A stretch of 64,000 bases of DNA from Gammaproteobacteria bacterium (GCA_963422205.2 CAXMWX010000001.1:480001-544000), one strand, 5' to 3'; positions 3,691-29,155 are shown, numbered from the stretch's first letter. The notes: generated by a model from the letters alone, not told the origin. A program made the numbers and translations.

Positions 3691-3699
3691 CCTGAAATC

Positions 3700-6435: not shown

Positions 6436-8096
6436 TTTGCAAACTCCTGAGGGAAATGGTTGATGGCCGAGCGCAGGGGATTAGGCGCCGCCTGACCCAG
6501 CCCGCAGATAGAGGCATCGGCCATGGCGGCACAAAGCTCCTCCAATAAGGCGACATCCCATTTTTCCCGTTGCATCAGCTTGACCGCCTTGGCCGTGCCG
6601 ACACGGCAGGGCGTACATTGGCCGCAGGATTCGTGGGCGAAAAAACGCATGCAGTTCAGCGCCAGCTGCCTTGCGGAGTCATGTTGTGACAACACAATAA
6701 TGGCCGCCGAGCCAATAAAACAGCCGGCCTCATGCAGCGTGTCGAAATCCAGCGGCAGATCCGCCAGGCTTGCCGGCAGGATGCCGCCTGAAGCACCGCC
6801 CGGAAAATAGCCATACAACTGATGCCCGGCGAGCATACCGCCGCAATACTCGGCAATCAATTCATTCAGTGTGATCCCGGCCGGGGCGAGATGGACTCCA
6901 GGCCGGTTGATGCGACCGCTGACAGAGAACGAGCGCAGACCCTGCCTGCCGTTGCGCCCATGCGATAAAAACCACGCCGGGCCCCTCTCCAGAATATCCC
7001 GCACCCAGTACAGGGTTTCCATGTTGTGTTCCAGGGTCGGCTTGCCAAACAAACCCACCTCGGCCACGAACGGCGGCCTTAGCCTTGGCATACCACGTTT
7101 GCCTTCGATGGATTCGATCATGGCCGACTCCTCCCCACAGATATAGGCACCCGCCCCCCGGCGCAGAATGATCTGTGGTGTTTGCAGGGTTTTATCGTTC
7201 GCCAGGGCCGCCAGCTCATGCTGCATTATCTGTCGGCATTCTGCATACTCATCACGTAAATACATATAGATCGCCTCGGCCTCTATTGCCCAGGCAGCGA
7301 TCAATACCCCCTCAAGCAGGCGGTGCGGGTCGCGCTCCAGATAATACCGATCCTTGAATGTGCCTGGCTCCCCCTCATCAATATTGACGGCGATCAGGCG
7401 CGGCTTTTTCTGCTGGCTGAGTATATCCCACTTCTTGCCGGCCGGAAATCCGGCACCCCCCAGGCCGCGCAAGCCGGCCGCCTGCATTTGCGAGATCACG
7501 TATGCACGTGTCAGGTCGCCGTCATGGCATTTTTTCAGCAGTTGATACCCCGCCGTGCGGCGATACGCATCCAGCGTGATATACGGCCTGAGTGTTGTCA
7601 CGGCTGTCTCGCCGCGCGCTATCATGGCGGTGATTTTTTTCGCCGTTGCCTGTTCTGCCGGGTTTGTCCCGACAACGGCCACGGGCGCACTATGGCATCG
7701 GCCGACACATGGCACAGGCTGAATACGTACCTTGTGGCGAGGGAGTTGTTGCTCAAGCTCGGCCATGAGGTGTTCAGCCCCGTACATCTCGCAGGTGATG
7801 GACTGACAGACCCGGACTGTCAACTCGGGCGGGGCGGGGTGCTGGTCTTTGACGACATCAAAATGATGATAGAAGGTGGCCACTTCATAAACCTCGGTGG
7901 TGGAGAGTTTTAACTCCTCAGCCAGTGCGGTGATGTGATCGGCGGAGATATGGTGATATTCATCCTGTAGCCGATGCAGAAATTCGATCAGCAGGTCTCT
8001 TCGTCTCGGCATACCTTCCAGCAGCTGTGTGATGGCCTGCCGTGATTGTGCATCGGCCTCCCGCCCGCGAAATTGATTGTTGATTTTTTTATTCAT
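6432..8096 (-). CDS. fdhB: Formate dehydrogenase beta (diaphorase) subunit, NuoE+NuoF fusion (Fdh1B-like)
   Basis: EVATFYHHF, VCQSITC, CVGRC (2Fe-2S), LRGLGGAGFP, DEGEPGTFKDR, GAGAYICGEE, ESCGQCTPCRVG; 4-nt overlap with the alpha gene. Confidence 0.92.
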   Translation of the reverse strand: MNKKINNQFRGREADAQSRQAITQLLEGMPRRRDLLIEFLHRLQDEYHHISADHITALAEELKLSTTEVYEVATFYHHFDVVKDQHPAPPELTVRVCQSITCEMYGAEHLMAELEQQLPRHKVRIQPVPCVGRCHSAPVAVVGTNPAEQATAKKITAMIARGETAVTTLRPYITLDAYRRTAGYQLLKKCHDGDLTRAYVISQMQAAGLRGLGGAGFPAGKKWDILSQQKKPRLIAVNIDEGEPGTFKDRYYLERDPHRLLEGVLIAAWAIEAEAIYMYLRDEYAECRQIMQHELAALANDKTLQTPQIILRRGAGAYICGEESAMIESIEGKRGMPRLRPPFVAEVGLFGKPTLEHNMETLYWVRDILERGPAWFLSHGRNGRQGLRSFSVSGRINRPGVHLAPAGITLNELIAEYCGGMLAGHQLYGYFPGGASGGILPASLADLPLDFDTLHEAGCFIGSAAIIVLSQHDSARQLALNCMRFFAHESCGQCTPCRVGTAKAVKLMQREKWDVALLEELCAAMADASICGLGQAAPNPLRSAINHFPQEFAK

Positions 8097-8105
8097 GAGA
8101 CAAGT

Positions 8106-8924
8106 TTATTTTGGTGTGTTTAACAGGACAAGTAACTCCCCTTTGCCGTTCTCCGCCATATCGCCGGCATAGCGATGCACCTCAGGCCCGTAGTGCTTGA
8201 AGCGGCGATACCTGCTGCCCATGCGCGATAGCTGCTTGAAGAACAGCCGTAAATAGGCCATCTTCAAATGGCCGCAACTGACCATGCCCGCCCCCATCAG
8301 GGCCGGGGCAGATTGCATGATAATCGTGCCTCTTTTCATGCCATAGCCGGGCAGGTGGCCGCACTTGCCCAGCACCACTACCGTACCGGCAATCATATTC
8401 GCCCCCGTATAATCGCCAGCATCTTTAGCGATCAGGATCATCCCGCGGCGCATCTTCTGCCCGGCCCGATCACCGGCATTTCCCCACACCGTGATCAGGC
8501 CATCATCCATGCCGTGCCTGCCACAGCCGATAGCGTGACCGGCATCGCCCATCACCTCGATCCTGCCCCAGCGCATCTGCCACCCCAGCCAGTTGCCGCA
8601 GTGACCATGCACATGAATGCTGCCGCCCTGCATGGCTTCGCCCAGGTAATCGCCAGCGTGTGATTTGACAGTGATACGGCCCTTGGTCATGCCATAACCA
8701 ATACGCTGCACATATTCGTTAGTGCGCCGTATTTCGATGTCATTGGCATCGTTGCCCTGTAGGGTAAACAGCTCGCCAATGCGAATTTTCTCATTGCCAA
8801 GCCGTACCTTGAGCGCGGCGATGGCGTGTCGATCCCCGGCCCGGGCGAGCAGGTCCGGCGTCAACACCGATAAATCCAGCGTTTTATCCGGTTTGCTTAA
8901 CAGGGTAAAGATCATGCGGCTCAT
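8106..8924 (-). CDS. fhcC: Formyltransferase/hydrolase complex subunit C (beta-helix)
   Basis: Repeated G.aGd..G..M.gG.I.v beta-helix units; C-terminal YAGDMAENGKGELL; last gene of the fhcBADC order. Confidence 0.9.
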   Translation of the reverse strand: MSRMIFTLLSKPDKTLDLSVLTPDLLARAGDRHAIAALKVRLGNEKIRIGELFTLQGNDANDIEIRRTNEYVQRIGYGMTKGRITVKSHAGDYLGEAMQGGSIHVHGHCGNWLGWQMRWGRIEVMGDAGHAIGCGRHGMDDGLITVWGNAGDRAGQKMRRGMILIAKDAGDYTGANMIAGTVVVLGKCGHLPGYGMKRGTIIMQSAPALMGAGMVSCGHLKMAYLRLFFKQLSRMGSRYRRFKHYGPEVHRYAGDMAENGKGELLVLLNTPK

Positions 8925-9817
8925 GTCAGTATATCCCTTAAATGAAAGTGGTACGGCCCCAGTTTGCCGCCATAGTTCCCGGCGCTGATCCGGTAAATGC
9001 CCTTCTCCGGGCCATACTGACAGACCGCTTCAACCCCGGCCTTGATCGCGGCTTTTATTGCCGCTTCGCTCATACCATCGATCACGATCTCCAGCACCGA
9101 GCCGATCTCCTCGGTCAACATGCTGTCCACCTGGCCCTTTAGTGTCGGACAAAAGGCTTCGTTGGTGGAGGCGGGCAGGAAGGTGTATTTGGAGCCAACC
9201 TTTGAACCAGAACCGACAATGCCGCCGGGAAAGGTGGTGACCGCCCCGGGTATGTTGCTGATCGCTTTGACGGCTTTTTCACAGGCGAGCAGGCCCTGGC
9301 GTGATGTCCTGGCCATGACCATGAAATTACCACCACCGATCGCCGGCACCACGCCGGTAGACTCCTCGCACAGGAACTCGCCGTGCATCACCGGAATCCG
9401 CCAGTATCTGATCCCGGCCAGCACCTTGGCGATCTGATAACCATCACCAAAATACCGGAGATTTTTACCCAGTGGCAGCATGGTGTTGCTTCTGATGCCA
9501 GCAAAACATGCACTGGTGGCGGTGGTCATCACCGATTGCCCGACGCGCCGGGTGAGTTGGTCGGCCAGCTGAGTTTTTGACATGGCAAAGATCAAAACCG
9601 CCAGCCCGGGCCTGCCGTCCGGGGTTTCTGCCGGTTTTAATTCGCATTCAATGTCCGACTCGCAACCACAGGCGATGACCGAGGAGGCAAAGCCGGTCAG
9701 CGAGTTGGCCGCCCGGTACGCCCATTGCAGCGACATCGCCGTGATGATGATACGGGTGGCCTGCATCGGGAAGCCCTCGGCAAAGGTATCGTCTATGACT
9801 ATGCCGTTGATCTTCAT
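8921..9817 (-). CDS. fhcD: Formylmethanofuran(methylofuran):H4MPT formyltransferase, Fhc subunit D
   Basis: MKINGIVIDDTFAEGF, TGFASSVIACGCE, TPDGRPG, RVGQSVMT, GSGSKVGSKY, ISAGNYGGKLG. Confidence 0.93.
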   Translation of the reverse strand: MKINGIVIDDTFAEGFPMQATRIIITAMSLQWAYRAANSLTGFASSVIACGCESDIECELKPAETPDGRPGLAVLIFAMSKTQLADQLTRRVGQSVMTTATSACFAGIRSNTMLPLGKNLRYFGDGYQIAKVLAGIRYWRIPVMHGEFLCEESTGVVPAIGGGNFMVMARTSRQGLLACEKAVKAISNIPGAVTTFPGGIVGSGSKVGSKYTFLPASTNEAFCPTLKGQVDSMLTEEIGSVLEIVIDGMSEAAIKAAIKAGVEAVCQYGPEKGIYRISAGNYGGKLGPYHFHLRDILT

Positions 9818-9818
9818 A

Positions 9819-11471
9819 TTACCTGCCGGGCTGTACTGTCAAGGCGCTCTCATTGTAGCTTTCCAGCTCCGCTGTGCTTAACTTGAAATTACCCAGGCGC
9901 ATGGTCATGTAGTCATCGAAATAACGTTTTAACGAGCGCTCAATACCGGCATCGTAATCGGGCCTGAGCACGTGTGTGGTTGTTTTCGGCAGGGCGCAGA
10001 CCTTGCCGTCTTTCACCACCCGCTCGCCATTTTTAAATACATACGCTGGTCGGCTGAACATTCTCTCGACATTCTTATCGGGGCTGTAGACCGCGATATC
10101 AGCCCGTGCGCCAGCGCCCAGATGCCCGCTGTCAGTCAGCCCCAGGCTCCTGGCGGGGGCGGCACGGGTCAGGATGGCGATTTCATGCAGCGTGTATTCC
10201 CGGGTGATGCTGGCCAGATGGCTGGCCCCGGCGGCCTCTGGATGAATGCGCTTGAGCATATCGTTGCGAAAGCTCTTGTCCATCAATAGACGAATCAGAT
10301 GAGGGTATGAGGTGAACGGCGCACCATTGGGGTGATCGGTGGTTAAAAAAACACGCCAGGGATCGTCCACCAGCAAAAAGATCTCAAGGCCAATACACCA
10401 TTGCAAGGCGTTCACAAAACGCATGTCTCGATACTTGAACGGCACCACCCCGCAGCCGGCATCACATTCAATATCCATACAGACCCACTTATTCGGGTGT
10501 GCATGGGCATGGCCGGCATACTGCATCATGGTATCCGCCGATGTGGTGGCTGTCTGGCCGAACATGATCTGACCCACATCAATGGAAATATTGGGATTGC
10601 TGTTGACCGCTTCGGCAATCTCTGCGGCGGCTGAGGAGAAATTTCTGTCGCCCTCCTGTCCATAGCTGTGAAACTGGACATGCGTTAAGTGCATGGGCCG
10701 TCCCTGTGCGGCGGCGATGGTATCTAACGTGGTCTTGACATTCCCCGGCACGCCCAGGTTACAGCCGTGTACATGCAGCGGGTGGGGTATGGCGATGTCG
10801 GCCACGGCGGTGAGTAATGCCGTCAAGATCGTGCGCGGCGTCAGGCCATAGTGGCGATTTTTCTCATCCAGATCGAGCTGGCGCTGATTAAATTTAAAGG
10901 CACTGATGCCGCCGGGGTTGACCGTCTTTACCCCCATTGCCTGGGTAGCTTGAATAGTCCAGGCGATGTAATCGTTGATGAGTTGCTGATCACGCCCGGC
11001 TTTAAGCAGGCGCAAAAAAAAGTCATCATTGCCTAACAACACATAGGCCCCGGTGTCCAGCATCGGTGTGTCCGCCATCTCCATGTGCGTCTGGCGTGCA
11101 TTGACCGGCAACATGGCTGGTTCAAAGCAGGAGGTATAACCCATCTCAGCATAGCGATAGCCGGTAATGAAGCTGGAGGGCGTACACCGCCCGGAGCCGG
11201 AGCGGGTCAAGCGCCCCCTCCTGACTCTGTTGTCTGCGTGATCCTCGGCCAGCAGCATGCGCCCGATATTGACCTTGCCGCCGCCTATGTGCGTATGGAT
11301 ATCAATCCCTCCCGCCATCACTATCTTGCCGCTGACATCAATAACGGCATCGATCTTTTGATTCCTACCGGGCTTGACCAGCCTGCCATCCTCAATAAAC
11401 ACATCACGTTTTTTACCCGTATCCGCATTCGCCGGATCATAAATGCGACCGCCTTTCAGTCGCATCAGCAT
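9819..11471 (-). CDS. fhcA: Fhc subunit A, formyl-methylofuran amidohydrolase
   Basis: GGIDIHTHIGGGKVN, GYRYAEMGYT, KTVNPGG, HPLHVHGCNLG, HLTHVQFHSYG, TTDHPNG. Confidence 0.93.
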   Translation of the reverse strand: MLMRLKGGRIYDPANADTGKKRDVFIEDGRLVKPGRNQKIDAVIDVSGKIVMAGGIDIHTHIGGGKVNIGRMLLAEDHADNRVRRGRLTRSGSGRCTPSSFITGYRYAEMGYTSCFEPAMLPVNARQTHMEMADTPMLDTGAYVLLGNDDFFLRLLKAGRDQQLINDYIAWTIQATQAMGVKTVNPGGISAFKFNQRQLDLDEKNRHYGLTPRTILTALLTAVADIAIPHPLHVHGCNLGVPGNVKTTLDTIAAAQGRPMHLTHVQFHSYGQEGDRNFSSAAAEIAEAVNSNPNISIDVGQIMFGQTATTSADTMMQYAGHAHAHPNKWVCMDIECDAGCGVVPFKYRDMRFVNALQWCIGLEIFLLVDDPWRVFLTTDHPNGAPFTSYPHLIRLLMDKSFRNDMLKRIHPEAAGASHLASITREYTLHEIAILTRAAPARSLGLTDSGHLGAGARADIAVYSPDKNVERMFSRPAYVFKNGERVVKDGKVCALPKTTTHVLRPDYDAGIERSLKRYFDDYMTMRLGNFKLSTAELESYNESALTVQPGR

Positions 11472-12715
11472 CCGCTTATCGCCTGTAGCCGGGCTATGAT
11501 CTGTTTAAGCACAGCACCTGTGCTGTACAGTTCGCTGTCACGCAGCTTTTTTAATGGCAGATTGATCACCGCATCGGCACGAAACAGGTTGCCTGCATGA
11601 TCGATGCCGGGCGTGCCTACCGGCAGGTATATCGTGGCACCTTTGCGAACGGCCTGATTGTTCGAGATGATGATGCCTGGCACATCCAGGGTCGGCGGGG
11701 TATCTCTCTCCAGGCTGGAAATCCAGACCAGGGCATCACACTCGGCCGGGTATGGCGTGTACGGGTCGGGTTGGCTGTCGGGGAAGCCATCGGTAAAACG
11801 CAGCCCGGCGGGGAAACCGGTTTGCCAGGTGGCGACTTGTTGTAACGATCCACCGGCATTATTATCCGTCAGTGCCAGCCCGGCGGCCCGTTGGCGTTGA
11901 TTCAGTTTGGCGATCAGATCGGTGATCGTGCGGATAAGCAAATCGGCACTGTCTGCCGGCAGGGCGGCGGCCGACCAGATAAAAACCGGATAGTGCGCTG
12001 CCTGGATCAGGGCGCTTGCCTGCTTGAGTTTTTTCAGTTTTTCTCTGGCAATGTTTTGATCCGTACCGCGCTGACCAAGCAGCGTGCATTTAAGTAATGT
12101 CAGCAGGTTGAGCAGCCCGTTGCCAGTGGCCGGTATGTGCAGTAAAGATTCGCCCAGTTTGATTTTCTCCTGCCGGCTCGCCTGCCCGATACAGATCAGT
12201 TTTCTCCGCTGTCCTTTGGGAAGAAACTGCGCCTGCCTGGTGGTGATAAACCTGTCGAGCAGGCGGGGGTACTTCGTGGTGATTTTATCGCCGATGAACA
12301 CCACCACATCGGCGCGATTTTTCAACTCGGCAAACGTGGTCATCATCCCGCCGCCGGTCTGCATCACATTGAGATTGTGTAATGTGCTGTCCTCGTATTT
12401 GTGTCGGATCACCGCATTGGTTAATTCGGCGAGATGAAGCGCCGCACGGAGCCCGTTTATGTCTGTCCCGAGATCGGCAATCAGCGGTCGCCTGGATTTT
12501 TTCAGCAGGATGGCGGCGTGTTTTACCGCCTCTGTATGTGATACGGGTTGTTGGTGTGCATAGGCTTGTGCTCCTGGCGGGGCCTGCTTAAAGCCCCGGG
12601 CGGCAAGTACACAGCCATGATTGACGACCTGCAATCGCCTCTGCCGTGCCTGCACGGACAGATCATCACATAATAGACTGCAAAAAGGGCAGGTTATGTC
12701 ATGCAATGTCGTCAC
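11465..12715 (-). CDS. fhcB: Fhc subunit B (FwdB homologue lacking Mo/W active-site residues)
   Basis: CPFCSLLCDD, ELKNRADVVVFIG, WQTGFP, GTPGIDHAG..FRAD. The catalytic CHG and RGH motifs of FwdB are absent. Confidence 0.88.
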   Translation of the reverse strand: MTTLHDITCPFCSLLCDDLSVQARQRRLQVVNHGCVLAARGFKQAPPGAQAYAHQQPVSHTEAVKHAAILLKKSRRPLIADLGTDINGLRAALHLAELTNAVIRHKYEDSTLHNLNVMQTGGGMMTTFAELKNRADVVVFIGDKITTKYPRLLDRFITTRQAQFLPKGQRRKLICIGQASRQEKIKLGESLLHIPATGNGLLNLLTLLKCTLLGQRGTDQNIAREKLKKLKQASALIQAAHYPVFIWSAAALPADSADLLIRTITDLIAKLNQRQRAAGLALTDNNAGGSLQQVATWQTGFPAGLRFTDGFPDSQPDPYTPYPAECDALVWISSLERDTPPTLDVPGIIISNNQAVRKGATIYLPVGTPGIDHAGNLFRADAVINLPLKKLRDSELYSTGAVLKQIIARLQAISGC

Positions 12716-12822
12716 TATGGCCTCTGTCTCGGTACGGCTTACGGTTATCCATCAGGAGCAACAGCCTGGCTTATCGCAGGCTGTGCGTGGGTGCGGAGAG
12801 TTAAGAGTTGTCTACGGCGGCG

Positions 12823-14196
12823 TCAGTCCAACAAGGCCAGCATGGCAGAGATGTCGGTATATTTTTCTCGGGGCTTTCCCGCTGCCTGGCCTCGCTCTAT
12901 CTCGCTTGCGTCAATTTTTTTCCAATCCTCAAAACTGACGTATCGTATGTTACGTTCAGTCAGGATCGTATAACAGCCTTCAGCCCCGGTTTTCGCCTCG
13001 CCTGTGTCAAGCCGGTCGATGTCGTCAAGTAAACAACCGACAGTCTCAACACTGTCTGCGCGGTTGGTGCCGATGATACCAGTTGCCCCCCGTTTTATCC
13101 ATCCTGCGGTATACAGCCCGGGCATGAGGCCATCGGCAGCGTGAATACGCCCCATCTGGTTGGCAAAGACCCCGCTGCTCTCATCAAACGGCACACCGGG
13201 CATCGCCCGTCCCTGATAGCCGATGCTGCGAAACACGAGGCCTGTTTCTATCTCATACCTTGCCCCCGTCCCGTGTGCTTTTTGGGAGAAGGGTTCGCCC
13301 GCCAGCCGGTTACTCTCCAGCACGATGCGCTGCACCCGGCCATTGCCAGTGATGGCCACCGGGCTGTTAAGAAAGGTAAATCGGCATTGTCTTGCCTTGG
13401 TGGTGCGGCGTTCGGAGAATTGTTTGAATAGATCCACCACCTTCCGACTGCCAGCGTTGGTTTTCTCGGCAAGTTCGGCCTTGCTTTCGGGATTAAGCTG
13501 CAAGTCCTCTGTGGCAACCACCGGATCGCACATGGCCAGCTCTCCAAATTCCTTCAGCTCTTTTGAGGTAAATTTCGCCTGTGCCGGCCCCCGCCGGCCA
13601 ATCACATACACCTGCTTGATTTTGCTCATCGCCAGGGCATCCAGTGCATGTTGGGCGATGTCGGTGTGTTTTAACTCATCGATCGTCTTGCTGAGGATAC
13701 GGCTGACATCGGCTGCCACATTCCCCTGGCCGATGATGACCGCCGTCTCATGGGAAAGATCAAATTGCCGATCACGGTAATCCGGGTGACCGTTATACCA
13801 GCCGACAAACTCGGTTGCCGTATGACTGCCGGGCAGGTCTTCACCCGGAATCTCCAGCCGGCGGTCGGTCTCGGCACCACAACTTAAAATGACCGCATGG
13901 TGGGTTTGTTGCAACTCTGTGATGCTGATATCCCGGCCCACAGTCACGTTGCCGAGGTAGTTGAATTGGCTCGCCTCGGCGATGCGGGCATAGACCTTGA
14001 TCACCTGCTTTAACTTGGGATGATCCGGGGCGACTCCGCTACGCACCAGACCATAAGGAGTGGGCAGGCGTTCCAGCAGGGTAATGTTCACCGTCAAGGC
14101 GGATTTAAGCAGTGCCTCGGCGGCATAAAAACCGCTGGGGCCGCTGCCGACGATAGCGACCTGAAGCGGGTTAGCCGGCGTGCCTGTGTGACTCAT
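12823..14196 (-). CDS. Ferredoxin-NADP+ reductase, adrenodoxin-reductase/FprA type
   Basis: VAIVGSGPSGFYAA, PYGLVRSGVAPDH, FVGWYNGHP, IGQGNVAADV, GRRGP, RSIGY, GWIKRGATG.IGTN. Confidence 0.92.
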   Translation of the reverse strand: MSHTGTPANPLQVAIVGSGPSGFYAAEALLKSALTVNITLLERLPTPYGLVRSGVAPDHPKLKQVIKVYARIAEASQFNYLGNVTVGRDISITELQQTHHAVILSCGAETDRRLEIPGEDLPGSHTATEFVGWYNGHPDYRDRQFDLSHETAVIIGQGNVAADVSRILSKTIDELKHTDIAQHALDALAMSKIKQVYVIGRRGPAQAKFTSKELKEFGELAMCDPVVATEDLQLNPESKAELAEKTNAGSRKVVDLFKQFSERRTTKARQCRFTFLNSPVAITGNGRVQRIVLESNRLAGEPFSQKAHGTGARYEIETGLVFRSIGYQGRAMPGVPFDESSGVFANQMGRIHAADGLMPGLYTAGWIKRGATGIIGTNRADSVETVGCLLDDIDRLDTGEAKTGAEGCYTILTERNIRYVSFEDWKKIDASEIERGQAAGKPREKYTDISAMLALLD

Positions 14197-14249
14197 GGCC
14201 TGTCGTGTTTTTTAACCGATGCCAGGGCGAGACTGCCTTGACAGCGTGG

Positions 14250-14555
14250 TCATAAACCCAGGGCGGCCTTCTTCTCATCGGCACCGGGCAGGGGTTCCAT
14301 GGAATCGGCGCAAACGGGCAGGGCAGGTGCTCTCTGGGCATTGATGTCAATCCACTCCAGCTTGTCTTCCGGCAAGTCATCTTCCTCATAAATGGCCTGC
14401 ACCGGGCATTCCGGGATACAGGCGCTACAGTCAATGCAGACATCGGGATCGATGTAGAGCATCTGCTCATCATAGTGAAAACACTCTACCGGGCAGACAG
14501 TCACGCAGTCTGTGTAACGGCAGTCTTTACAATTATCGGTGACAACGGTCGTCAT
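14250..14555 (-). CDS. fdxA: Dicluster ferredoxin, FdxA/Azotobacter FdI (7Fe)-type
   Basis: CKDCRYTDCVTVCPVECF...LYIDPDVCIDCSACIPECPVQAI; RBS aaggagag upstream. Confidence 0.9.
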   Translation of the reverse strand: MTTVVTDNCKDCRYTDCVTVCPVECFHYDEQMLYIDPDVCIDCSACIPECPVQAIYEEDDLPEDKLEWIDINAQRAPALPVCADSMEPLPGADEKKAALGL

Positions 14556-14638
14556 GTTTCTCTCCTTAAAGCCGGGTGCTGAACGATGCAGATTCTAACC
14601 TGCCTGCAGGGGGTAATGATAGCTTAAAAATAAAAATC

Positions 14639-15451
14639 TCAGCCGGCGTAAAGTAATATTTCACCTTTATTTAACTCCACGCCATCCCCGCAAAAACGCC
14701 TGTAGCTGCCGGCTTTATGTGCTGCCGTCAAGGCCAGCCCCAGCTGTTGCAGATAAATAAAATACATACGCAGAAAGGCCGGCGGCCAGGTGCAGGCGTA
14801 AGTGAAGGTCGGTAACAACTCCGCCTGCTTGAGCGATACGATAGACCCTCTTTTCATGCCGGCCCCGGTGCGAAGCCCCAGCTCTCCCAACACCATGATC
14901 GTACCGGCCAGCATGTTCACGCCGGTGAAGTCGCCGCTGTTGCCGGCGATGGCGATCAGCCCATTACGCATGGCATGACCCACTTCGTTACGGGCGCTGC
15001 CGTGGATGATGATCTCCCCGCCACACATGCCCGTGGCCGCCCCCCGGTAGGCACTGCCAATCATGTGGCCAGCATCACCATAGATGATGATGCGACCGCC
15101 GGACATCTCCGGCCCGACCCAGTCGTCAGCGTTGCCCTCTACCCGTATCTCACCGCCCCGCATCCCCGCCCCCAGATGCGGGCCGACATCGCCCTCAATA
15201 TGCAGGCTGCCATGGGTCATCTGGGCGCCCAGGAATTTAACTTTGGACAGATCGCCAGAGATACGCACCGTGCGGTCATCTGCATTGCCTGAAACAGCAA
15301 AAAAATCGGCCAGCAGGCAGGGCTGATTGCCATAGTGCAGGGGCAGTTTTTCAATCTCGGTATGGCCTAACCCAGATAATCTGTCGGGGGTGATGGTATC
15401 GGCTTCCAGCGGCACATCAGGGCAGACCCGTTGTGTAAGTTCCAGTGCCAT
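14639..15451 (-). CDS. fwdC: Formylmethanofuran dehydrogenase subunit C
   Basis: Start MALELT, 1 nt after the ftr stop; VPLEADTITPD, LADFFAVSG, repeated G..M.GG.I.V.G beta-helix units, GSAYRG...GMCGG, C-terminal GKGEIL-like NKGEILL. Confidence 0.88.
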   Translation of the reverse strand: MALELTQRVCPDVPLEADTITPDRLSGLGHTEIEKLPLHYGNQPCLLADFFAVSGNADDRTVRISGDLSKVKFLGAQMTHGSLHIEGDVGPHLGAGMRGGEIRVEGNADDWVGPEMSGGRIIIYGDAGHMIGSAYRGAATGMCGGEIIIHGSARNEVGHAMRNGLIAIAGNSGDFTGVNMLAGTIMVLGELGLRTGAGMKRGSIVSLKQAELLPTFTYACTWPPAFLRMYFIYLQQLGLALTAAHKAGSYRRFCGDGVELNKGEILLYAG

Positions 15452-15452
15452 G

Positions 15453-16340
15453 TCAACCGGCCATGAGTTCATGTAAGTGAATTTTATATTGCCCCAGGCT
15501 GCCGCCATAATTCCCTGCACTGATCTTGACCACCCCTGGCCGGGCGGCGGCCTCCACACCTGCCTGCATTGCCGCCCTGATGGCAGCTTCTGTGAGTCCG
15601 TCGATGACTATCTCCAGTACACAGTTGACCTCATCGGGTAATGCCGTGCTGGTGAGGGCCTTTAAGGTGGGGCAATAGGCTTCGTTGGTTGAGGCGGGCA
15701 GCCCCTTGTAGCGAGAGCCGACCTTGCTGCCGCTACGTACCACACCATCCGGGAAAGGCAGGATGATATCGCCGCACATACGCATGGCCTGCACCGCTGC
15801 CGTGGCGGCGGACAGGCCCTGTTCTGCATCGGTTGCCATCAGGATAATATTGCCGCCTGCCACGGCCTCCTGCACGGCAAAACTCTCGGCCACGGTAAAC
15901 TCACCATCCATCACCGGAATACGCCAGTAGCGCCGGCCGGCAAGTTGTTTACTGGCCTGGAAGCCATCGCCGAAATAGCGCAGTTGGGAGCCAACCTGCA
16001 CAGTCTGTTCATTCTCAAGCCCGCTGAAACATGCCGTGGTCGGGCAGGTCATCACACACTGGCCGATGCGTTCCACCAGCCGTTTGCCAACCGCTGCCTT
16101 GTCCATCGCAAATAACAAGACACTGACGCCAGGCCGCTCGTCCGGTGTTTGTTCGGGCGATAATGTGGTTTCAATGCCGGCTTCGCATTGGCAGCCAATG
16201 ATGGAGGTGGCGAATCCGGTCATTGTCTGTGCGGCGGCCAGCGCCCATTGTTCAGTCGCCGCGGTGATGATCACACGTGTGCCCCACAGTGCGAAGGCCT
16301 CAGCAAAGGTATCTGCTATGTCGGTGGTTCTGAGCCTCAT
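15453..16340 (-). CDS. ftr: Second formylmethanofuran:H4MPT formyltransferase (Ftr)
   Basis: IADTFAEAF, TGFATSIIGCQCEAGIE, RIGQCVMTCPTTACF, VRSGSKVGSRY, ISAGNYGGSLG. Confidence 0.92.
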   Translation of the reverse strand: MRLRTTDIADTFAEAFALWGTRVIITAATEQWALAAAQTMTGFATSIIGCQCEAGIETTLSPEQTPDERPGVSVLLFAMDKAAVGKRLVERIGQCVMTCPTTACFSGLENEQTVQVGSQLRYFGDGFQASKQLAGRRYWRIPVMDGEFTVAESFAVQEAVAGGNIILMATDAEQGLSAATAAVQAMRMCGDIILPFPDGVVRSGSKVGSRYKGLPASTNEAYCPTLKALTSTALPDEVNCVLEIVIDGLTEAAIRAAMQAGVEAAARPGVVKISAGNYGGSLGQYKIHLHELMAG

Positions 16341-17980
16341 CCTGGCACGGTTGCAATGATTTGGTGATCATGCAGGTAGCTGTCGTTGACGGCATAGTTA
16401 TCGAACTCAATGGAGTAATAGTTCTCAAAGAACGGCCTCACCTGCCGAACAATGCCATCATCATAACCGGGTTCGACATGTAAAAATTTACCGCTGTGAT
16501 CCTGGCGGAACTCATGATCTTCTATCACCGGTATGCCGGCCTTGAAGACATACCGCGGTGCATTGAACATGGCCTCTTTGTCTTCCATGTCATCATAGAC
16601 GGTGATGTCGGCATCGGCACCGGCCGCCAAATGCCCCTTGTTGTTCAAACCCAGCGCCCGGGCCGGGCCGGCGCGGGTGATGATGGCGATCTCGTTTAGG
16701 GTATATTCCCGATCTAGCTCGTTCAGCATGGTCTGGTTGATCGCCTTTTGGTTCACCCGCTTGATCTCCTCGGCACGAAACGCGCTGTCCATCAGCAGCC
16801 GGATCAGTTTAGGATAGCTCATGAACGAGCCGCCGTTGGGGTGATCCGTTGACAGCACGATGCGCCAGGGATCGTTTGACAGCAGGAATAATTCGAGACC
16901 AATCGCCCATTGCAGGGCGTGTACGTAGACATGTTCCTGGTAGTTGAACGGCACGATGCCGCAGCCGCTTTCACATTCGGTATCCGCATTGACCCATTTG
17001 CCCTTCTTAAACCCCCGCAACATGTACGCCAGGGGTGCATCGGCGGTCATGATGGTGGATTTGCCAAACATGACCTGGCCGACATCGCAGGTAATGTTCG
17101 GATGGGCATTGACATACTCGGCTATTTCTCTGGCGGCTGATTTCGGGTTTTTACCCAACTCGCCGGCATAGCTGTGAAACTGGATATGGGCGAGGTGGAC
17201 CCGTCTGTCAGCGGCGGTTTTCATGGTCTCCAGCGTGGTGGTGACATTGCCGCTGTGGCCGAGGTTGTTGCAATGAATGTGCGGCGGGTGAGGCAGGCCC
17301 AGTGCATTGACGCTGTCAATAAACGCCTCAATAATCTGCCGTGGCGTGATCTCAAAGACATCGCTCTGCTCATCAATGTGGGTAACATTGGCATTTTTTT
17401 TGCCCTTCCAGGGCTCATCGCCGCCCGGGTTGACCAGCTTGGTCGTGTAGGCCTTGGTTGCATTGATCCACCAGGCAACCGCCTGTTTGAACTCCTCTGT
17501 GCGCTTTTCCCTGAGCAGTTGCTGTAGAAAGATATTATTGCCGAGCAACACATAAAAGCCTTTATCGATCACGGGTGTGTCGTGCAATTCCTCAATGGTA
17601 TGGCGAGCGCCAATGGGCGTGACGGCAGCTTCCATGGCCGTGGTGTAACCCAGGGCGGCATAGCGGTAGCCCGTGGCAAAGGTTGAGGGGACGGTGCCGC
17701 CTGAGCCAGACCGGGTACAAGCGGTGGCCGGATGGGGATCATGCCGATGATCCTCCGGCTGGAGTTTGCGCGCCAGATTGACCTTCGGGCCGGCGATATG
17801 GCAATGAATGTCCACCCCGCCGGGCATGACGACCATGCCATCAAGGGCATATCTTCTCGGCGTAGCAGAGGGTGATTTAACGATTATGCCGTTTTCAATA
17901 AAGAGGTCTTTGACCTGGCCGTTGATACCATTGCCAGGGTCATATACCCGGCCGCCAGCAAGCTGTATGCAGTCTGTCAT
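16337..17980 (-). CDS. fwdA: Formylmethanofuran dehydrogenase subunit A (binuclear amidohydrolase)
   Basis: MPGGVDIHCHIAGPKVN.ARKLQPEDH, VPSTFATGYRYA.LGYTT, KLVNPGG, HIHCNNLG, HLAHIQFHSY, STDHPNGG; archaeal FwdA-like wording, distinct from the neighbouring fhcA. Confidence 0.9.
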   Translation of the reverse strand: MTDCIQLAGGRVYDPGNGINGQVKDLFIENGIIVKSPSATPRRYALDGMVVMPGGVDIHCHIAGPKVNLARKLQPEDHRHDPHPATACTRSGSGGTVPSTFATGYRYAALGYTTAMEAAVTPIGARHTIEELHDTPVIDKGFYVLLGNNIFLQQLLREKRTEEFKQAVAWWINATKAYTTKLVNPGGDEPWKGKKNANVTHIDEQSDVFEITPRQIIEAFIDSVNALGLPHPPHIHCNNLGHSGNVTTTLETMKTAADRRVHLAHIQFHSYAGELGKNPKSAAREIAEYVNAHPNITCDVGQVMFGKSTIMTADAPLAYMLRGFKKGKWVNADTECESGCGIVPFNYQEHVYVHALQWAIGLELFLLSNDPWRIVLSTDHPNGGSFMSYPKLIRLLMDSAFRAEEIKRVNQKAINQTMLNELDREYTLNEIAIITRAGPARALGLNNKGHLAAGADADITVYDDMEDKEAMFNAPRYVFKAGIPVIEDHEFRQDHSGKFLHVEPGYDDGIVRQVRPFFENYYSIEFDNYAVNDSYLHDHQIIATVPG

Positions 17981-18037
17981 TATCTTTTGGGATGATTATG
18001 TTTATGGCGGGTCAGCCGCCGGTTGCTGTCCGCCAGC

Positions 18038-19414
18038 TCATGGCATGGCGGCGGTCATCTGCTCATCTGCATCAGCACGCCGAACGATGTGACTGCTCTC
18101 GCTTCTGGCCTGTACCAACTCCTGCACACGCTGTTTGATGGCCGTGAGTATCTCCTCATCGGTGGGGAAGGGCGAATCATAGACCTTACGCAGGGTGATG
18201 GGGACATCGTCCATGCGATAGACCGTGCCGGTGGTGTTGATGCCGTAGGTTGCCGTCCGAAAAGCGACATGTGCCAGCCTGCTGGTCAGGGTTTCCTTGG
18301 TATCCAGGCAGATCACCGGTATGTTGGACAGATGATCGATCGCTGCCCTGGGGAAATTAGCCGCCGGATCACTGGCGATAATCAAGGCGGCATCAGCATC
18401 TTGTTTTGCCAGGACATCGACCGTGGTAAATTCGCCCGGGTTAAACCGCGGGAAGCCGCGGCTGAAATTCACGCCAAAGGGATACCCTGTCTGCCAGGAC
18501 AGGACGTTATCAGCACCGGTCACGTTGCCATGACCACGCACTGGCTTGGCGACAAAATGGGTATATTCGTTTAAGTCTGTTGCCAGTGCCAACAGGGCGC
18601 CTGAGTTGAAATGTCGGCCGCGGGTCATGGTCAGCCCCATGCCAAAAAACAGCACGCCGTAGCGACAGTTCCTCATCATCTCCACCAGCATCTGCATCAC
18701 CTGCTGGCTGACGCCGGTAATCGCTTCAATATTCTCGGCCAGTGATCGGCCTTTGAGCAAGGCACGCAGCGCCCACAGCAATTCAAAATCCTTACCCGGT
18801 TTGACCTGCACAAAATGATTGGCCGCCGGTGCGCTGGGCGTCTTGCGTACATCCACCACCACGACCGTGCGATCTTTCTTGCCTTTGGGGGTGAACATCC
18901 CCTTGGCCGTGACGGCATAGCGACCGAAATGGCGCGGGTGCGATTCCGCCGGATTGCCGCCCCAGTAGATGACCAGATCGGCGCGGTTTTTAACCTCGCC
19001 CAGCGTCATGGTGCTCTCCCCTACCCCCTGAAAGGCCAGGCCTGATGGCCCGTGGCAGACCGAGGTGGTGGTGTCTATGTTGCCCCGGCTAATATCGGCA
19101 ATCGCCACCGCCTGTCGCTGTGCCTCGCAGGTGGTATCACTCAGGCCATAGATGATCGGGAACCTCGCCCGGGCGAGGGTCTGTGCGGCCTGTTCAATGG
19201 CCTCATCCAGCGATGCCGGCTGGCCGTCGATCAACGCCGCCGGGGCAGCTTCGTCGATCGTATGTTCAGCAAACCAGGCACGACCCAGCACGCAGGCATT
19301 TTTTGATTTGATAATGCGTTTCGCCTCCTCATCCACACTCAAGATCATGTCATCACACACACAGCCACAGAAGGTGCAGGTGGCGTTTTTGATCACGTTG
19401 ATATTGGCGCTCAT
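18038..19414 (-). CDS. fwdB: Formylmethanofuran dehydrogenase subunit B (W/Mo-bisPGD catalytic subunit, apparently intact)
   Basis: 4Fe-4S motif CTFCGCVCDD...NAC; metal-ligand motif TTSVCHGPS; TLGEVKNRADLVIYWGGNPAESHPRH; RGHGNVTG; WQTGYPFGV; GTVYRMDDVP. Confidence 0.9.
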   Translation of the reverse strand: MSANINVIKNATCTFCGCVCDDMILSVDEEAKRIIKSKNACVLGRAWFAEHTIDEAAPAALIDGQPASLDEAIEQAAQTLARARFPIIYGLSDTTCEAQRQAVAIADISRGNIDTTTSVCHGPSGLAFQGVGESTMTLGEVKNRADLVIYWGGNPAESHPRHFGRYAVTAKGMFTPKGKKDRTVVVVDVRKTPSAPAANHFVQVKPGKDFELLWALRALLKGRSLAENIEAITGVSQQVMQMLVEMMRNCRYGVLFFGMGLTMTRGRHFNSGALLALATDLNEYTHFVAKPVRGHGNVTGADNVLSWQTGYPFGVNFSRGFPRFNPGEFTTVDVLAKQDADAALIIASDPAANFPRAAIDHLSNIPVICLDTKETLTSRLAHVAFRTATYGINTTGTVYRMDDVPITLRKVYDSPFPTDEEILTAIKQRVQELVQARSESSHIVRRADADEQMTAAMP

Positions 19415-19420
19415 GGTGTT

Positions 19421-19777
19421 TTACGTTACCGGTTGAATTGATGAGATTTTCTCTACATCCACTGCCAGGTGTTTTGAGAGCGGCATACCGCTGCCCGCCG
19501 TATCGCTTTCCATAAGCTGGCTGGACTGGGGGCCGTAGGGAATGAACAGCATACCGGCGGGCAGACCGGTGCCCGCCGTACAGGTGACGATTGCCTCGCC
19601 GATGGCATTGCTTAACCGCAGGCGATCGCCCTCGCTGAACCCCAGGTGCTGCATATCCTCCTGACTCATCTCGACAGTGGAGGTGACTTGCTGGTAGTCC
19701 GCTTTCAGCTTACCTTTGTTGAGTGTGGTGCCCTGTTGTTTCGAACGCCCGGGCACCAGGAGCATATTTGTTGGCAT
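19421..19777 (-). CDS. fwdD: Formylmethanofuran dehydrogenase subunit D (molybdopterin dinucleotide-binding)
   Basis: LVPGRSKQQG...GK...Y, MSQEDMQHLGFSEGDRLRL, LPAGMLFIPYGP, TAGSGMPLSK.L.VDVE match the FwdD/FmdD pattern; 6 nt upstream of fwdB. Confidence 0.87.
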   Translation of the reverse strand: MPTNMLLVPGRSKQQGTTLNKGKLKADYQQVTSTVEMSQEDMQHLGFSEGDRLRLSNAIGEAIVTCTAGTGLPAGMLFIPYGPQSSQLMESDTAGSGMPLSKHLAVDVEKISSIQPVT

Positions 19778-29030: not shown

Positions 29031-29155
29031 GGAAATTACGCTGTTAAATCCGTGTGCTTCACTTGCTCGATGAACTCCCCGACATAGCGACTCAGGTACT
29101 TCCCGGTCATGTGGTGGAAGGCAGCATGATGCCGGCGTCCGAAGCAGTCATTGCC

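What the first reader, a model, noticed from the sequence alone, without database searches (positions are those of the whole stretch)
14639..19777. Apparently intact archaeal-style formylmethanofuran dehydrogenase (fwdDBA-ftr-fwdC) in a XoxF methylotroph that also has Fhc
Seen: a second complete A/B/C/Ftr set plus a separate D subunit. The B subunit retains the 4Fe-4S motif (CTFCGCVC...NAC), the Mo/W-ligating Cys with adjacent His (SVCHGPS), and the active-site Arg (RGHGN). The A subunit retains its binuclear metal ligands. Known: proteobacterial methylotrophs typically use the redox-inactive FhcABCD (no D subunit, no pterin), while redox-active Fwd/Fmd is characteristic of methanogens and other anaerobic archaea. 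Inference: a hybrid formyltransferase-dehydrogenase complex, with ftr embedded in Fhc-like order B-A-ftr-C, that oxidises formyl-H4MPT directly to CO2 and yields low-potential electrons. I know of no biochemical description of such a complex in an aerobic-type methylotroph, though homologues may already have been noted in genome surveys. This is the best candidate for a new system in this window.
Basis: partly seen in the sequence, partly recalled or inferred. Interest (0 to 1): 0.9.

Follow-up and report, generated by a model that had tools for sequence, protein, structure and literature searches.

The report
Redox-active formylmethanofuran dehydrogenase in aerobic methylotroph
An oxygen-respiring, methanol-type bacterium carries, beside the usual formate-releasing enzyme, an intact copy of the metal-pterin enzyme known from methane-making archaea with a formyltransferase built into it, and the same gene set proves common in uncultured relatives, some of which have no other way to finish one-carbon oxidation.

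Summary
Window 14639-19777 (minus strand) encodes fwdD, fwdB, fwdA, ftr and fwdC. All catalytic signatures are present. A separate fhcBADC set lies at 8106-12715.

It is not an assembly artefact. It is also not a one-off:
- 92 of 126 genomes of the same GTDB family hold a FwdB-type gene.
- So do 20 of 401 sampled Gammaproteobacteria.
- Four complete genomes have this cassette as their only FwdA/FhcA homologue. Two of those also lack a formate dehydrogenase.

- FwdC has an Fhc-like C-terminal part, which is predicted to dock Ftr.
- A 7Fe ferredoxin and an FprA-type NADPH:ferredoxin reductase follow fwdC in 51 of 52 related loci, and in 6 of 6 loci from other families.
- That pair also persists in relatives without the cassette, so it is a likely partner but not a dedicated one.

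Best reading: a dehydrogenase-competent Fwd-Ftr complex oxidises formyl-H4MPT to CO2 and reduces ferredoxin, and through it possibly NADP+.

On novelty, bacterial FwdB homologues and this same gene order (in Actinobacteria) are already in print. I found no biochemistry. I class it as a new variant of a known kind.

The parts
19421..19777 (-). fwdD: the small subunit that caps the pterin site (molybdopterin dinucleotide-binding domain)
   Evidence: PF01568, E 1.9e-11. NF042908 FwdD scores 70 bits, below its archaeal cut-off of 175. All 5 PDB hits are FwdD/FmdD chains, the best being 2ki8_A at E 9e-17. A hit is present in 79 of 80 related loci.
18038..19414 (-). fwdB: W/Mo-bis-pterin catalytic subunit with an N-terminal [4Fe-4S] motif
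   Evidence: TIGR03129 scores 523 bits against a cut-off of 327.8. 5t5i_B matches at E 3.4e-116. Cys13, Cys16, Cys20 and Cys41, plus Cys120, His121 and Arg293, are kept in 85 of 85 gammaproteobacterial sequences.
16337..17980 (-). fwdA: amidohydrolase subunit (formyl-methanofuran hydrolysis/synthesis, binuclear metal site)
   Evidence: TIGR03121 scores 707 bits. Best PDB hits are archaeal: 8rja_A 464 bits and 5t5i_A 448 bits, against Fhc 6s6y_A at 373 bits. His59, His61, Lys181, His236, His265 and Asp379 are kept in 69 of 69 sequences.
15453..16340 (-). ftr: formylmethanofuran:H4MPT formyltransferase. It overlaps fwdA by 4 nt and ends 1 nt before the fwdC start.
   Evidence: PF01913 plus PF02741. 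TIGR03119 scores 432 bits. PDB: 6s6y_D 324 bits and 1ftr_A 308 bits. It follows fwdA in 63 of 64 loci that have room for it.
14639..15451 (-). fwdC: beta-helix (GXGXG) subunit with an Fhc-like C-terminal part predicted to hold Ftr
   Evidence: TIGR03122 scores 271 bits. It aligns at 8-267 with FhcC 6s6y_C, but only to about residue 220 with archaeal FwdC chains. In the predicted complex, the interface residues are 222-233, 246 and 262.
14250..14555 (-). fdx: 7Fe-type (Azotobacter FdI-like) ferredoxin, the candidate electron acceptor
   Evidence: 1frk_A matches at E 3.4e-30, with all Cys aligned. NF045490 FdxA scores 115 bits, below its cut-off of 135. A Shine-Dalgarno-like AAGGAGAG lies upstream, and no terminator-like site lies in the gap. 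The gene follows fwdC in 51 of 52 loci and in 6 of 6 loci from other families.
12823..14196 (-). fprA: adrenodoxin-reductase-type NADPH:ferredoxin oxidoreductase
   Evidence: 1lqt_A (FprA) matches at E 4.3e-105 and 1cjc_A (adrenodoxin reductase) at E 5.6e-103. It is single-copy in the genome. It also occurs in 23 of 34 family genomes without a FwdB-type match.
8106..12715 (-). fhcB-fhcA-fhcD-fhcC: the neighbouring, redox-inactive formyltransferase/hydrolase set (context, not part of the Fwd enzyme)
   Evidence: FhcB scores 226 bits on TIGR03129 and has Ser/Thr/Thr at the Cys/His/Arg sites. FhcA's best PDB hit is 6s6y_A at 459 bits. For FhcD and FhcC.
3700..8096 (-). NAD-type formate dehydrogenase genes downstream of fhc (context): a NuoE/F-like 554-aa subunit and a 911-aa alpha subunit
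   Evidence: TIGR01591 scores 744 bits against a cut-off of 666. The NuoF and NuoE families match the 554-aa protein.

Best explanation
The five genes encode a dehydrogenase-competent bacterial formylmethanofuran dehydrogenase (FwdABCD) that has a formyltransferase docked on FwdC, as in the bacterial Fhc complex.

Proposed path, all of it inferred from homology:
1. Ftr moves the formyl group from formyl-H4MPT to methanofuran or methylofuran.
2. FwdA hydrolyses the formyl-furan at its binuclear metal site.
3. The formate passes inside the complex to the W- or Mo-bis-pterin site of FwdB/FwdD and is oxidised to CO2.
4. Two electrons leave through the FwdB [4Fe-4S] cluster.

The most likely acceptor is the 7Fe ferredoxin encoded just downstream. 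The FprA-type flavoprotein next to it could then reduce NADP+.

In this organism the route would run beside Fhc plus NAD-type formate dehydrogenase. Fwd would handle dissimilation without free formate. Fhc would supply free formate, which the genome can feed to H4F through FTHFS.

My odds for each step:
- intact redox enzyme: about 0.85
- oxidative direction: about 0.8
- Ftr is part of the complex: about 0.65
- the ferredoxin is the acceptor: about 0.5
- FprA links it to NADP+: about 0.4
For: Family scores and solved relatives.

Catalytic residues:
- The 4 Fe-S Cys plus Cys120/His121/Arg293 are kept in 85 of 85 gammaproteobacterial FwdB sequences.
- The six FwdA ligands are kept in 69 of 69 sequences.
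- These are the residues Hemmann 2019 names as lost in FhcB (PMC6926001, passages).

Constraint:
- In 34 of 34 loci holding both, FwdB is more conserved than FhcB. Median identity to the window is 77% against 34%.
- FwdA and FhcA differ by only about 7 points.
- Caveat: the loci were picked by likeness to FwdB.

Necessity:
- G441, G378, G523 and G177 are single-contig genomes, 99-100% complete. Each has one FwdA/FhcA homologue, the cassette's own.
- G441 and G523 also have no formate dehydrogenase alpha over cut-off and no FTHFS, yet they have mch.

Ftr docking:
- Gene order and tight spacing.
- Complex prediction gave score 0.77 with best control 0.00. That mark was reached by 58 of 80 solved complexes and 2 of 110 mismatched pairs. 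The runs agree in at least 95% of contacts, and partner pLDDT is at least 93.
- The interface lies in the C-terminal part of FwdC. Hemmann 2019 reports that FhcD attaches to FhcC there.

Ferredoxin and FprA:
- Same strand, with gaps of 83 and 53 nt and no terminator-like site between.
- Present in 51 of 52 loci with room.
- Present in 6 of 6 loci from other families, 5 of which have no fhc behind them.

Direction and cofactor supply:
- The formyl-MFR/CO2 couple is near -0.53 V (PMC11656701, passage). That is low enough to reduce ferredoxin.
- Cofactor supply and aerobic respiration are encoded: MobA, ModA and an aa3-type oxidase subunit I.
Against: No metal, pterin, activity or expression data exist.

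The ferredoxin/FprA pair is not specific to Fwd:
- An FprA orthologue is found in 23 of 34 family genomes that lack a FwdB-type match of 468 bits or more. One of those 34, G105, in fact holds the cassette with fwdB split over two frames.
- In the same-genus genome G011, and in G051, fdx-fprA stand directly before fhcBADC with no fwd cassette.
- In G028 they stand before the formate dehydrogenase genes, with neither fwd nor fhc.
- The complete genome G033 (= L050) has the cassette but no fdx/fprA beside it, and only a 40%-identical FprA-like hit elsewhere.

Much of the synteny among the 80 loci may be shared ancestry rather than selection.

The complex prediction may only echo the solved Fhc structure 6S6Y.

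Some curated cut-offs are not reached:
- The archaeal 'exception' models score below cut-off: FwdD 70 of 175, FwdC 195 of 340, FwdA 545 of 950.
- The FdxA model scores below cut-off: 115 of 135.

W/Mo-pterin formate-type enzymes are often oxygen-sensitive, and this genome encodes aerobic respiration.
Confidence: 0.6

Rival explanations
1. The Fwd-Ftr enzyme is redox-active and oxidative, but the neighbouring ferredoxin and FprA are a general, or formate-dehydrogenase/Fhc-associated, NADPH:ferredoxin pair. They are not its physiological acceptor chain. Electrons would leave to another ferredoxin, to the NuoE/F-like module, or to an unidentified carrier.
For: - An FprA orthologue is present in 23 of 34 family genomes without a FwdB-type match.
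- fdx-fprA head fhcBADC-fdh in G011 and G051, and head fdh alone in G028.
- G033 has the cassette without the pair.
- A second 7Fe ferredoxin, 50% identical, lies on contig C5.
Against: - The pair follows fwdC in 51 of 52 loci.
- In 5 of 6 loci from other families it follows fwdC with no fhc nearby.
- No other electron-transfer gene lies in the cassette.
- The FmdE family was not found in the genome.
Confidence: 0.25
2. The cassette works in the reductive direction. NADPH, through FprA and the ferredoxin, would drive CO2 fixation to formyl-methanofuran and on to formyl-H4MPT for assimilation, as in methanogens.
For: - The same enzyme family reduces CO2 in methanogens (PMC11656701, passages).
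- FprA-type enzymes normally reduce ferredoxin with NADPH (recalled).
Against: - The couple lies near -0.53 V, while NADPH is about -0.32 V (recalled). Without bifurcation the reaction runs uphill.
- No Hdr, hydrogenase or bifurcating module lies nearby.
- The context is an oxidative H4MPT island, with fae, mch, a PQQ dehydrogenase and aerobic respiration.
Confidence: 0.05
3. It is a second, non-redox formyltransferase/hydrolase. In this reading FwdB and FwdD keep ancestral motifs but bind no cofactor, and the product is formate.
For: - The Fhc-like gene order and the Fhc-like C-terminal part of FwdC.
- The window's own FhcB still keeps four Fe-S cysteines although its catalytic triad is gone. 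Motif retention alone therefore does not prove function.
Against: - All seven FwdB residues are kept in 85 of 85 sequences. FwdB is the best-conserved large subunit, while FhcB is the worst.
- FwdD is retained in 79 of 80 loci.
- G441 and G523 have no formate dehydrogenase alpha over cut-off to consume the formate.
Confidence: 0.05

Closest known systems
Archaeal tungsten/molybdenum formylmethanofuran dehydrogenase FwdABCD(FG), Methanothermobacter wolfeii (PDB 5T5I), and the F420-coupled enzyme of Ca. Ethanoperedens (8RJA)
   Same: - Subunits A, B, C and D are all present.
- FwdB has the [4Fe-4S] motif and Cys/His/Arg.
- FwdA has the binuclear ligands.
- PDB scores: B 391 bits, A 448-464 bits, C 151-168 bits, D 49-60 bits.
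   Different: - No FwdE/F/G polyferredoxin genes lie beside it, and the FmdE family was not found in the genome.
- ftr is encoded inside the operon and is predicted to be docked.
- The C-terminal part of FwdC is not archaeal-like.
- The host respires oxygen.
- The candidate partners are a 7Fe ferredoxin and FprA.
- The archaeal 'exception' HMM cut-offs are not reached.
Formyltransferase/hydrolase complex FhcABCD of Methylorubrum extorquens (PDB 6S6Y; Hemmann 2019, PMC6926001, passages)
   Same: - Gene order B-A-ftr-C.
- Ftr is slightly closer to FhcD than to archaeal Ftr: 324 against 308 bits.
- FwdC aligns over its full length with FhcC, and its C-terminal part is the predicted Ftr contact.
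   Different: - Fhc has no D subunit.
- FhcB has lost Cys118, His119 and Arg288 and the Fe-S domain, and the complex releases formate.
- Here D is present and B keeps all of these.
- A true Fhc set lies next door at 8106-12715.
fwdDBA-ftr-fwdC of the Hakuba Actinobacteria single-cell genomes (Merino 2020, PMC7325909, passages)
   Same: - The same five-gene order.
- No fwdEFG.
- FwdB has the Fe-S domain and Cys118.
- The authors likened the order to Fhc.
   Different: - Those are anaerobic Wood-Ljungdahl Actinobacteria with no H4MPT biosynthesis genes detected.
- No ferredoxin/FprA pair was mentioned in the passages I saw.
- There is no co-resident Fhc.
- That work is genome-only too.
FprA and 7Fe ferredoxin (Mycobacterium tuberculosis FprA 1LQT; Azotobacter ferredoxin I)
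   Same: - FprA matches at E 4e-105 over its full length.
- The ferredoxin matches at E 3e-30 with the 7Fe cysteine pattern aligned.
   Different: - That pair is known as an NADPH-to-ferredoxin supply line (recalled).
- Here it is placed behind a low-potential dehydrogenase, where the flow would be reversed.
- The curated FdxA cut-off is not reached.

Membership tests
Formylmethanofuran dehydrogenase (Fwd/Fmd) | B subunit with an N-terminal four-Cys [4Fe-4S] motif | tested here: met
   Cys13, Cys16, Cys20 and Cys41. They are kept in 107 of 107 aligned FwdB-type sequences.
Formylmethanofuran dehydrogenase (Fwd/Fmd) | Metal-ligating Cys/Sec with the adjacent His, plus the active-site Arg (Cys118/His119/Arg288 of M. 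wolfeii, per Hemmann 2019) | tested here: met
   Cys120, His121 and Arg293, aligned to 5t5i_B. They are kept in 85 of 85 gammaproteobacterial sequences.
Formylmethanofuran dehydrogenase (Fwd/Fmd) | Separate or fused D subunit that caps the pterin site | tested here: met
   PF01568. Only FwdD chains are hit in the PDB. The archaeal NF042908 cut-off is not reached: 70 of 175 bits.
Formylmethanofuran dehydrogenase (Fwd/Fmd) | A subunit: amidohydrolase with four His, a carboxylated Lys and an Asp at a binuclear site | tested here: met
   His59, His61, Lys181, His236, His265 and Asp379 are kept in 69 of 69 sequences. The motifs align with archaeal FwdA.
Formylmethanofuran dehydrogenase (Fwd/Fmd) | Curated family cut-offs for the A, B and C subunits | tested here: met
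   TIGR03121: 707 bits against 392.75. TIGR03129: 523 against 327.8. TIGR03122: 271 against 130.65.
Formylmethanofuran dehydrogenase (Fwd/Fmd) | Bound W or Mo bis-pterin guanine dinucleotide, and formyl-methanofuran dehydrogenase activity | not testable with these tools
   Only the supply genes were seen: MobA at 240 bits and ModA at 137 bits. The formate dehydrogenase needs these too.
Formyltransferase/hydrolase complex (Fhc) | B subunit without the pterin ligands, and no D subunit | tested here: not met
   The set at 14639-19777 keeps both. The set at 8106-12715 does meet this feature.
Formyltransferase/hydrolase complex (Fhc) | Formyltransferase encoded between A and C and held by the C-terminal part of the C subunit | tested here: met
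   Gene order. FwdC aligns with FhcC to residue 267. Predicted docking scored 0.77 with best control 0.00. This may be from memory of 6S6Y.
Formyltransferase/hydrolase complex (Fhc) | Tightly bound polyglutamylated methylofuran anchored on the C subunit | not tested
   The anchoring residues are listed only in a supplement of Hemmann 2019, which I could not see.
FprA / 7Fe-ferredoxin redox pair | Adrenodoxin-reductase-type flavoprotein and a ferredoxin with the 7Fe cysteine pattern | tested here: met
   1lqt_A matches at E 4.3e-105. 1frk_A matches at E 3.4e-30 with all Cys aligned. The NF045490 cut-off is not reached: 115 of 135 bits.
FprA / 7Fe-ferredoxin redox pair | Co-occurrence with the Fwd cassette, if the pair is dedicated to it | tested here: not met
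   FprA is present in 23 of 34 family genomes without a FwdB-type match. It is absent beside the cassette in the complete genome G033.

The most novel reading that the evidence does not exclude
This is a living intermediate between archaeal Fwd and bacterial Fhc. It would be a single aerobic-host complex that already has the docked formyltransferase, and perhaps a tethered methylofuran, but has not lost the W/Mo dehydrogenase. It would turn formyl-H4MPT into CO2 while reducing a 7Fe ferredoxin and, through FprA, NADP+. In several gammaproteobacterial lineages it would be the only terminal step of C1 oxidation, replacing Fhc plus formate dehydrogenase. If so, association of Ftr came before loss of the dehydrogenase in the path proposed by Hemmann 2019. 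It would also add a new electron-output module to the known ones (ferredoxin/polyferredoxin, Hdr supercomplex, F420 reductase).
Probability: 0.35. Interest if true: 0.8.

Novelty: new variant of a known kind. Interest (0 to 1): 0.6.

Why it matters
Textbook bacterial methylotrophy ends the H4MPT pathway with the redox-dead Fhc complex and a separate formate dehydrogenase.
- Chistoserdova 2016 (PMC5020050, passage) states that fwdD is not present in Proteobacteria or Planctomycetes.

The data here point the other way.
- A dehydrogenase-competent Fwd with a built-in formyltransferase is common in uncultured, oxygen-respiring Gammaproteobacteria.
- Those bacteria include relatives labelled as the atmospheric-methane-oxidiser cluster USC-gamma and as sponge and groundwater bins.
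- In some complete genomes it is the only route from formyl-H4MPT to CO2.

If the enzyme is active, three things follow.
- Energy and redox budgets for these methylotrophs change, because low-potential electrons replace a wasted hydrolysis.
- The order of steps in the Fwd-to-Fhc transition becomes testable.
- An oxygen-exposed relative of the CO2-fixing Fwd machine becomes available for enzymology.

Tried and rejected
Co-occurrence test for a dedicated ferredoxin/FprA module. The result went against the idea of a dedicated module, as set out above. I keep the pair only as the likeliest partner.

TIGR03129 cut-off as a divider between FwdB and FhcB. I rejected it.
- FhcB-type genes in relatives score 190-409 bits, and some pass the 327.8 cut-off. 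G302, at 409 bits, sits in an fhcBADC context.
- I used 468 bits or more instead. That leaves a clear gap in both lists.

One extra homologue search showed that the nearest non-gamma group is Planctomycetota.

Planctomycete context. The metagenome scan gave only 2 short loci, each with a different order: ftr on the opposite strand before a D-B fusion and A, and D-B-C. That is too little to generalise.

Expression. No RNA holder is listed.

pmoA. No match, but the control rang nowhere, so the result is uninformative.

Promoter and terminator scan. Counts were near the shuffled expectation. I use only the lack of a terminator-like site in the intergenic gaps.

Literature.
- Adam et al. 2019 (Nat Microbiol), which probably treats the Fwd/Fhc phylogeny, is not held. 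What I say of it is recalled.
- Supplements of Hemmann 2019 and Merino 2020 could not be seen. They may list the methylofuran-anchoring residues and the FwdB alignments.
- My statement that no biochemical description is in print rests on the searches, within the held library only.

I considered assembly chimera or contamination and rejected it (and the synteny in complete genomes).

Full report
WHAT IS THERE

On the minus strand of window 14639-19777 lie five tightly packed ORFs.
- fwdD: 19421-19777.
- fwdB: 18038-19414, 6 nt after fwdD.
- fwdA: 16337-17980.
- ftr: 15453-16340, overlapping fwdA by 4 nt.
- fwdC: ends at 14639.

The longest frame of fwdC starts at a GTG at 15559, inside ftr. The family match begins at residue 39 of that frame, and an ATG lies at 15451, one base after the ftr stop. 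I therefore place fwdC at 14639-15451.

Pfam and NCBIfam name all five genes, and the curated cut-offs for A, B, C and Ftr are passed. The archaeal 'exception' models for FwdA, FwdC and FwdD match but stay below their cut-offs. These are relatives of the methanogen enzymes, not orthologues in NCBI's narrow sense.

CATALYTIC FEATURES

- Against solved structures it matches the tungsten FwdB of Methanothermobacter at E 3.4e-116.
- It matches the Fhc scaffold FhcB only at E 1.7e-12.
- Hemmann 2019 (passages) names the features that FhcB has lost: Cys118, His119, Arg288, the N-terminal Fe-S domain, and the capping subunit FwdD.
- In an alignment of the window protein, 78 related loci and 6 loci from other families, all 85 sequences keep the four Fe-S cysteines and Cys120/His121/Arg293.
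- Some distant unnamed representatives differ at the last three sites.
- The window's own FhcB has Ser/Thr/Thr there.

FwdA keeps six metal-site residues in 69 of 69 sequences. It scores higher against archaeal FwdA (448-464 bits) than against FhcA of Methylorubrum (373 bits). The neighbouring FhcA does the reverse, at 459 against 395-414 bits.

FwdD hits only FwdD chains.

NOT AN ARTEFACT

The window sits within a 615-kb contig of a 2.99-Mb genome that is 98% complete.

They may be the source data. The same arrangement also stands in many complete MAG chromosomes.

HOW COMMON IT IS

- The FwdB protein has thousands of close relatives at 76-83% identity. Where named, they are named formylmethanofuran dehydrogenase subunit B of Gammaproteobacteria MAGs.
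- In one-genome-per-species collections, 556 stretches encode a relative. The best 80 are almost all uncultured Gammaproteobacteria. Among them are records titled USCg_Taylor, Ca. Oxydemutatoraceae, Thiotrichaceae UBA973 and sponge or groundwater bins.
- In the window's own GTDB family, 92 of 126 genomes (34 genera) have a match of 468 bits or more. This is a floor, because G105 holds the cassette with fwdB in two frames.
- The same-genus genome G011 (92% complete) has none. There fdx-fprA-fhcBADC-fdh follow the RFAP synthase gene directly.
- In an even sample of the class, 20 of 401 genomes have a FwdB-type match. Of these, 17 lie in 10 other families, and four are flagged unpublished.
- The nearest non-gamma relatives, at about 54% identity, are Planctomycetota proteins. 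Several have D fused to the N-terminus of B.

IS IT NEEDED?

Four single-contig genomes from other families have exactly one FwdA/FhcA homologue, the cassette's own: G441, G378, G523 and G177. All have mch.

G441 and G523 also have no formate dehydrogenase alpha over the curated cut-off and no formate-tetrahydrofolate ligase. In those two the H4MPT route would dead-end unless the cassette makes CO2. I find this the strongest genomic argument for dehydrogenase activity.

Conservation points the same way. In 34 of 34 loci with both genes, FwdB is far better conserved than FhcB (medians 77% and 34%). The A subunits differ little. The loci were chosen by likeness to FwdB, which inflates this somewhat.

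A HYBRID WITH FHC

The order B-A-ftr-C is that of fhc, and ftr follows fwdA in 63 of 64 loci with room.
- Ftr scores slightly better against bacterial FhcD (324 bits) than against archaeal Ftr (308 bits).
- FwdC aligns with archaeal FwdC only to about residue 220, but with FhcC to residue 267.
- A complex prediction was run from alignments of 29 sequences each. It put Ftr on FwdC residues 222-233, 246 and 262, with score 0.77 and best control 0.00.
- That mark was reached by 58 of 80 solved complexes and 2 of 110 mismatched pairs. The runs agree in at least 95% of contacts, and partner pLDDT is at least 93.
- Because 6S6Y is solved, this shows likeness and does not prove binding.

Taken together, the complex looks like Fhc that never lost its dehydrogenase.

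WHERE THE ELECTRONS GO

No FwdF/G-like or FmdE gene is nearby, and the FmdE family was not found in the genome.

Directly downstream on the same strand come two genes:
- a 101-aa ferredoxin of the Azotobacter 7Fe type (E 3e-30, all cysteines aligned);
- a 457-aa protein of the FprA/adrenodoxin-reductase type (E 4e-105).

The gaps are short and hold no terminator-like site, and a Shine-Dalgarno-like motif lies upstream of fdx.

The pair follows fwdC in 51 of 52 loci with at least 2100 nt of room. The exception is L050, and in L075 mch follows instead. It also follows fwdC in 6 of 6 loci from other families, 5 of them with no fhc behind.

With the formyl-MFR/CO2 couple near -0.53 V, reduction of ferredoxin, and then of NADP+, would be downhill. 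The carrier potentials are recalled.

Against a dedicated module:
- FprA orthologues are in 109 of 126 family genomes, including 23 of the 34 without a FwdB-type match.
- fdx-fprA head fhc-fdh, or fdh alone, in cassette-less relatives.
- One complete genome has the cassette without the pair.

I therefore treat the ferredoxin as the likeliest acceptor (about 0.5) and the FprA link as plausible (about 0.4). Neither is shown.

PHYSIOLOGY OF THE HOST

The genome encodes the following:
- an aa3-type oxidase subunit I, MobA and ModA;
- a PQQ dehydrogenase with a DYDG motif, at the window start;
- fae, mch and methanofuran/H4MPT biosynthesis genes around the cassette;
- FTHFS.

A division of labour is a reasonable inference. 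Fhc would give free formate for assimilation and for NADH. Fwd would give CO2 and low-potential electrons.

WHAT IS KNOWN

- Wells 2023 counted 149 bacterial FwdB homologues and argued for transfer from Archaea.
- Merino 2020 described the identical order fwdDBA-ftr-fwdC, with Cys118 and the Fe-S domain, in anaerobic Actinobacteria.
- Chistoserdova 2016 stated that fwdD is kept in NC10, Firmicutes and Synergistetes but is not present in Proteobacteria or Planctomycetes. The present data contradict this for both phyla.
- A review of the enzyme family lists only Fhc as a bacterial relative with a structure.
- In the held library I found no biochemical study of a bacterial redox-active Fwd.
- Adam 2019 could not be read.

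VERDICT

This is a real, intact and widespread bacterial variant of a known enzyme family. It has an Fhc-like docked formyltransferase and a probable ferredoxin output. It is not categorically new, and its gene order is already in print for another phylum. Its prevalence and likely necessity in aerobic Gammaproteobacteria are not described in what I could search. Nor is the ferredoxin/FprA neighbourhood, or its value as an intermediate between Fwd and Fhc. Interest 0.6.

Noticed in passing
window 11465-12715 (fhcB): This FhcB keeps all four cysteines of the N-terminal [4Fe-4S] motif, although the Cys/His/Arg catalytic sites are Ser/Thr/Thr. The Methylorubrum FhcB is reported to lack the Fe-S domain altogether (Hemmann 2019, passage). 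An Fe-S cluster in an otherwise 'dead' scaffold would be unexplained.
   Followed up: partly
L088 (G028) 7578-13872; L085 (G011) 7315-18141; L090 (G051): The ferredoxin-FprA pair stands directly before the NAD-type formate dehydrogenase genes in a genome with neither fwd nor fhc. In cassette-less relatives it stands before fhcBADC-fdh. The pair seems tied to CO2-forming C1 modules in general, for a reason I cannot give.
   Followed up: partly
window 3-1241 (gene starts upstream, G000:C3) and 1980-2894: A PQQ-dependent methanol/ethanol-family dehydrogenase (about 650 aa in full) has a DYDG motif and a vicinal Cys-Cys. A MoxJ-like binding protein follows it. Reading the motif as lanthanide (XoxF) type is recalled, not tested.
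   Followed up: partly
L086 (G105) 7054-8371 and 15156-16801: In this single-contig genome both fwdB and fhcA read in two frames. This could be long-read assembly error or real decay. It makes genome tallies of the cassette a floor.
   Followed up: no
L075 9308-12636; L087 4549-12102; L089 (G033) 3349-10355: Insertions of 3.3 kb (between fwdB and fwdA), 7.5 kb (between fdx and fprA) and 7 kb (between fwdC and fhcB) break the otherwise fixed order in single genomes. I did not examine their content.
   Followed up: no
proteins P0123, P0275 and others; L098 3019-4731: Planctomycetota (Pirellulales) MAGs carry FwdB-type genes, several with FwdD fused to the N-terminus. This runs contrary to the 2016 statement that planctomycetes lack fwdD. 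In L098, ftr lies on the opposite strand upstream rather than between A and C.
   Followed up: partly
G000:C5:300056-300343: A second 7Fe-type ferredoxin, 50% identical to the cassette-linked one, lies elsewhere in the genome.
   Followed up: no
window 27434-30000: G+C content dips to 0.50 here, against about 0.55-0.60 in the flanks. The stretch holds a Dam-family adenine methyltransferase (28149-29030) and an unassigned 258-aa ORF. It may be a small restriction-modification or mobile insert.
   Followed up: no
window 19084-19174 (inside fwdB): The contigs of run X2 break here into short alternative pieces. A minor variant has depth about 2-4, against about 420-490 for the main form. This looks like a low-frequency single-letter variant in the sample.
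   Followed up: no
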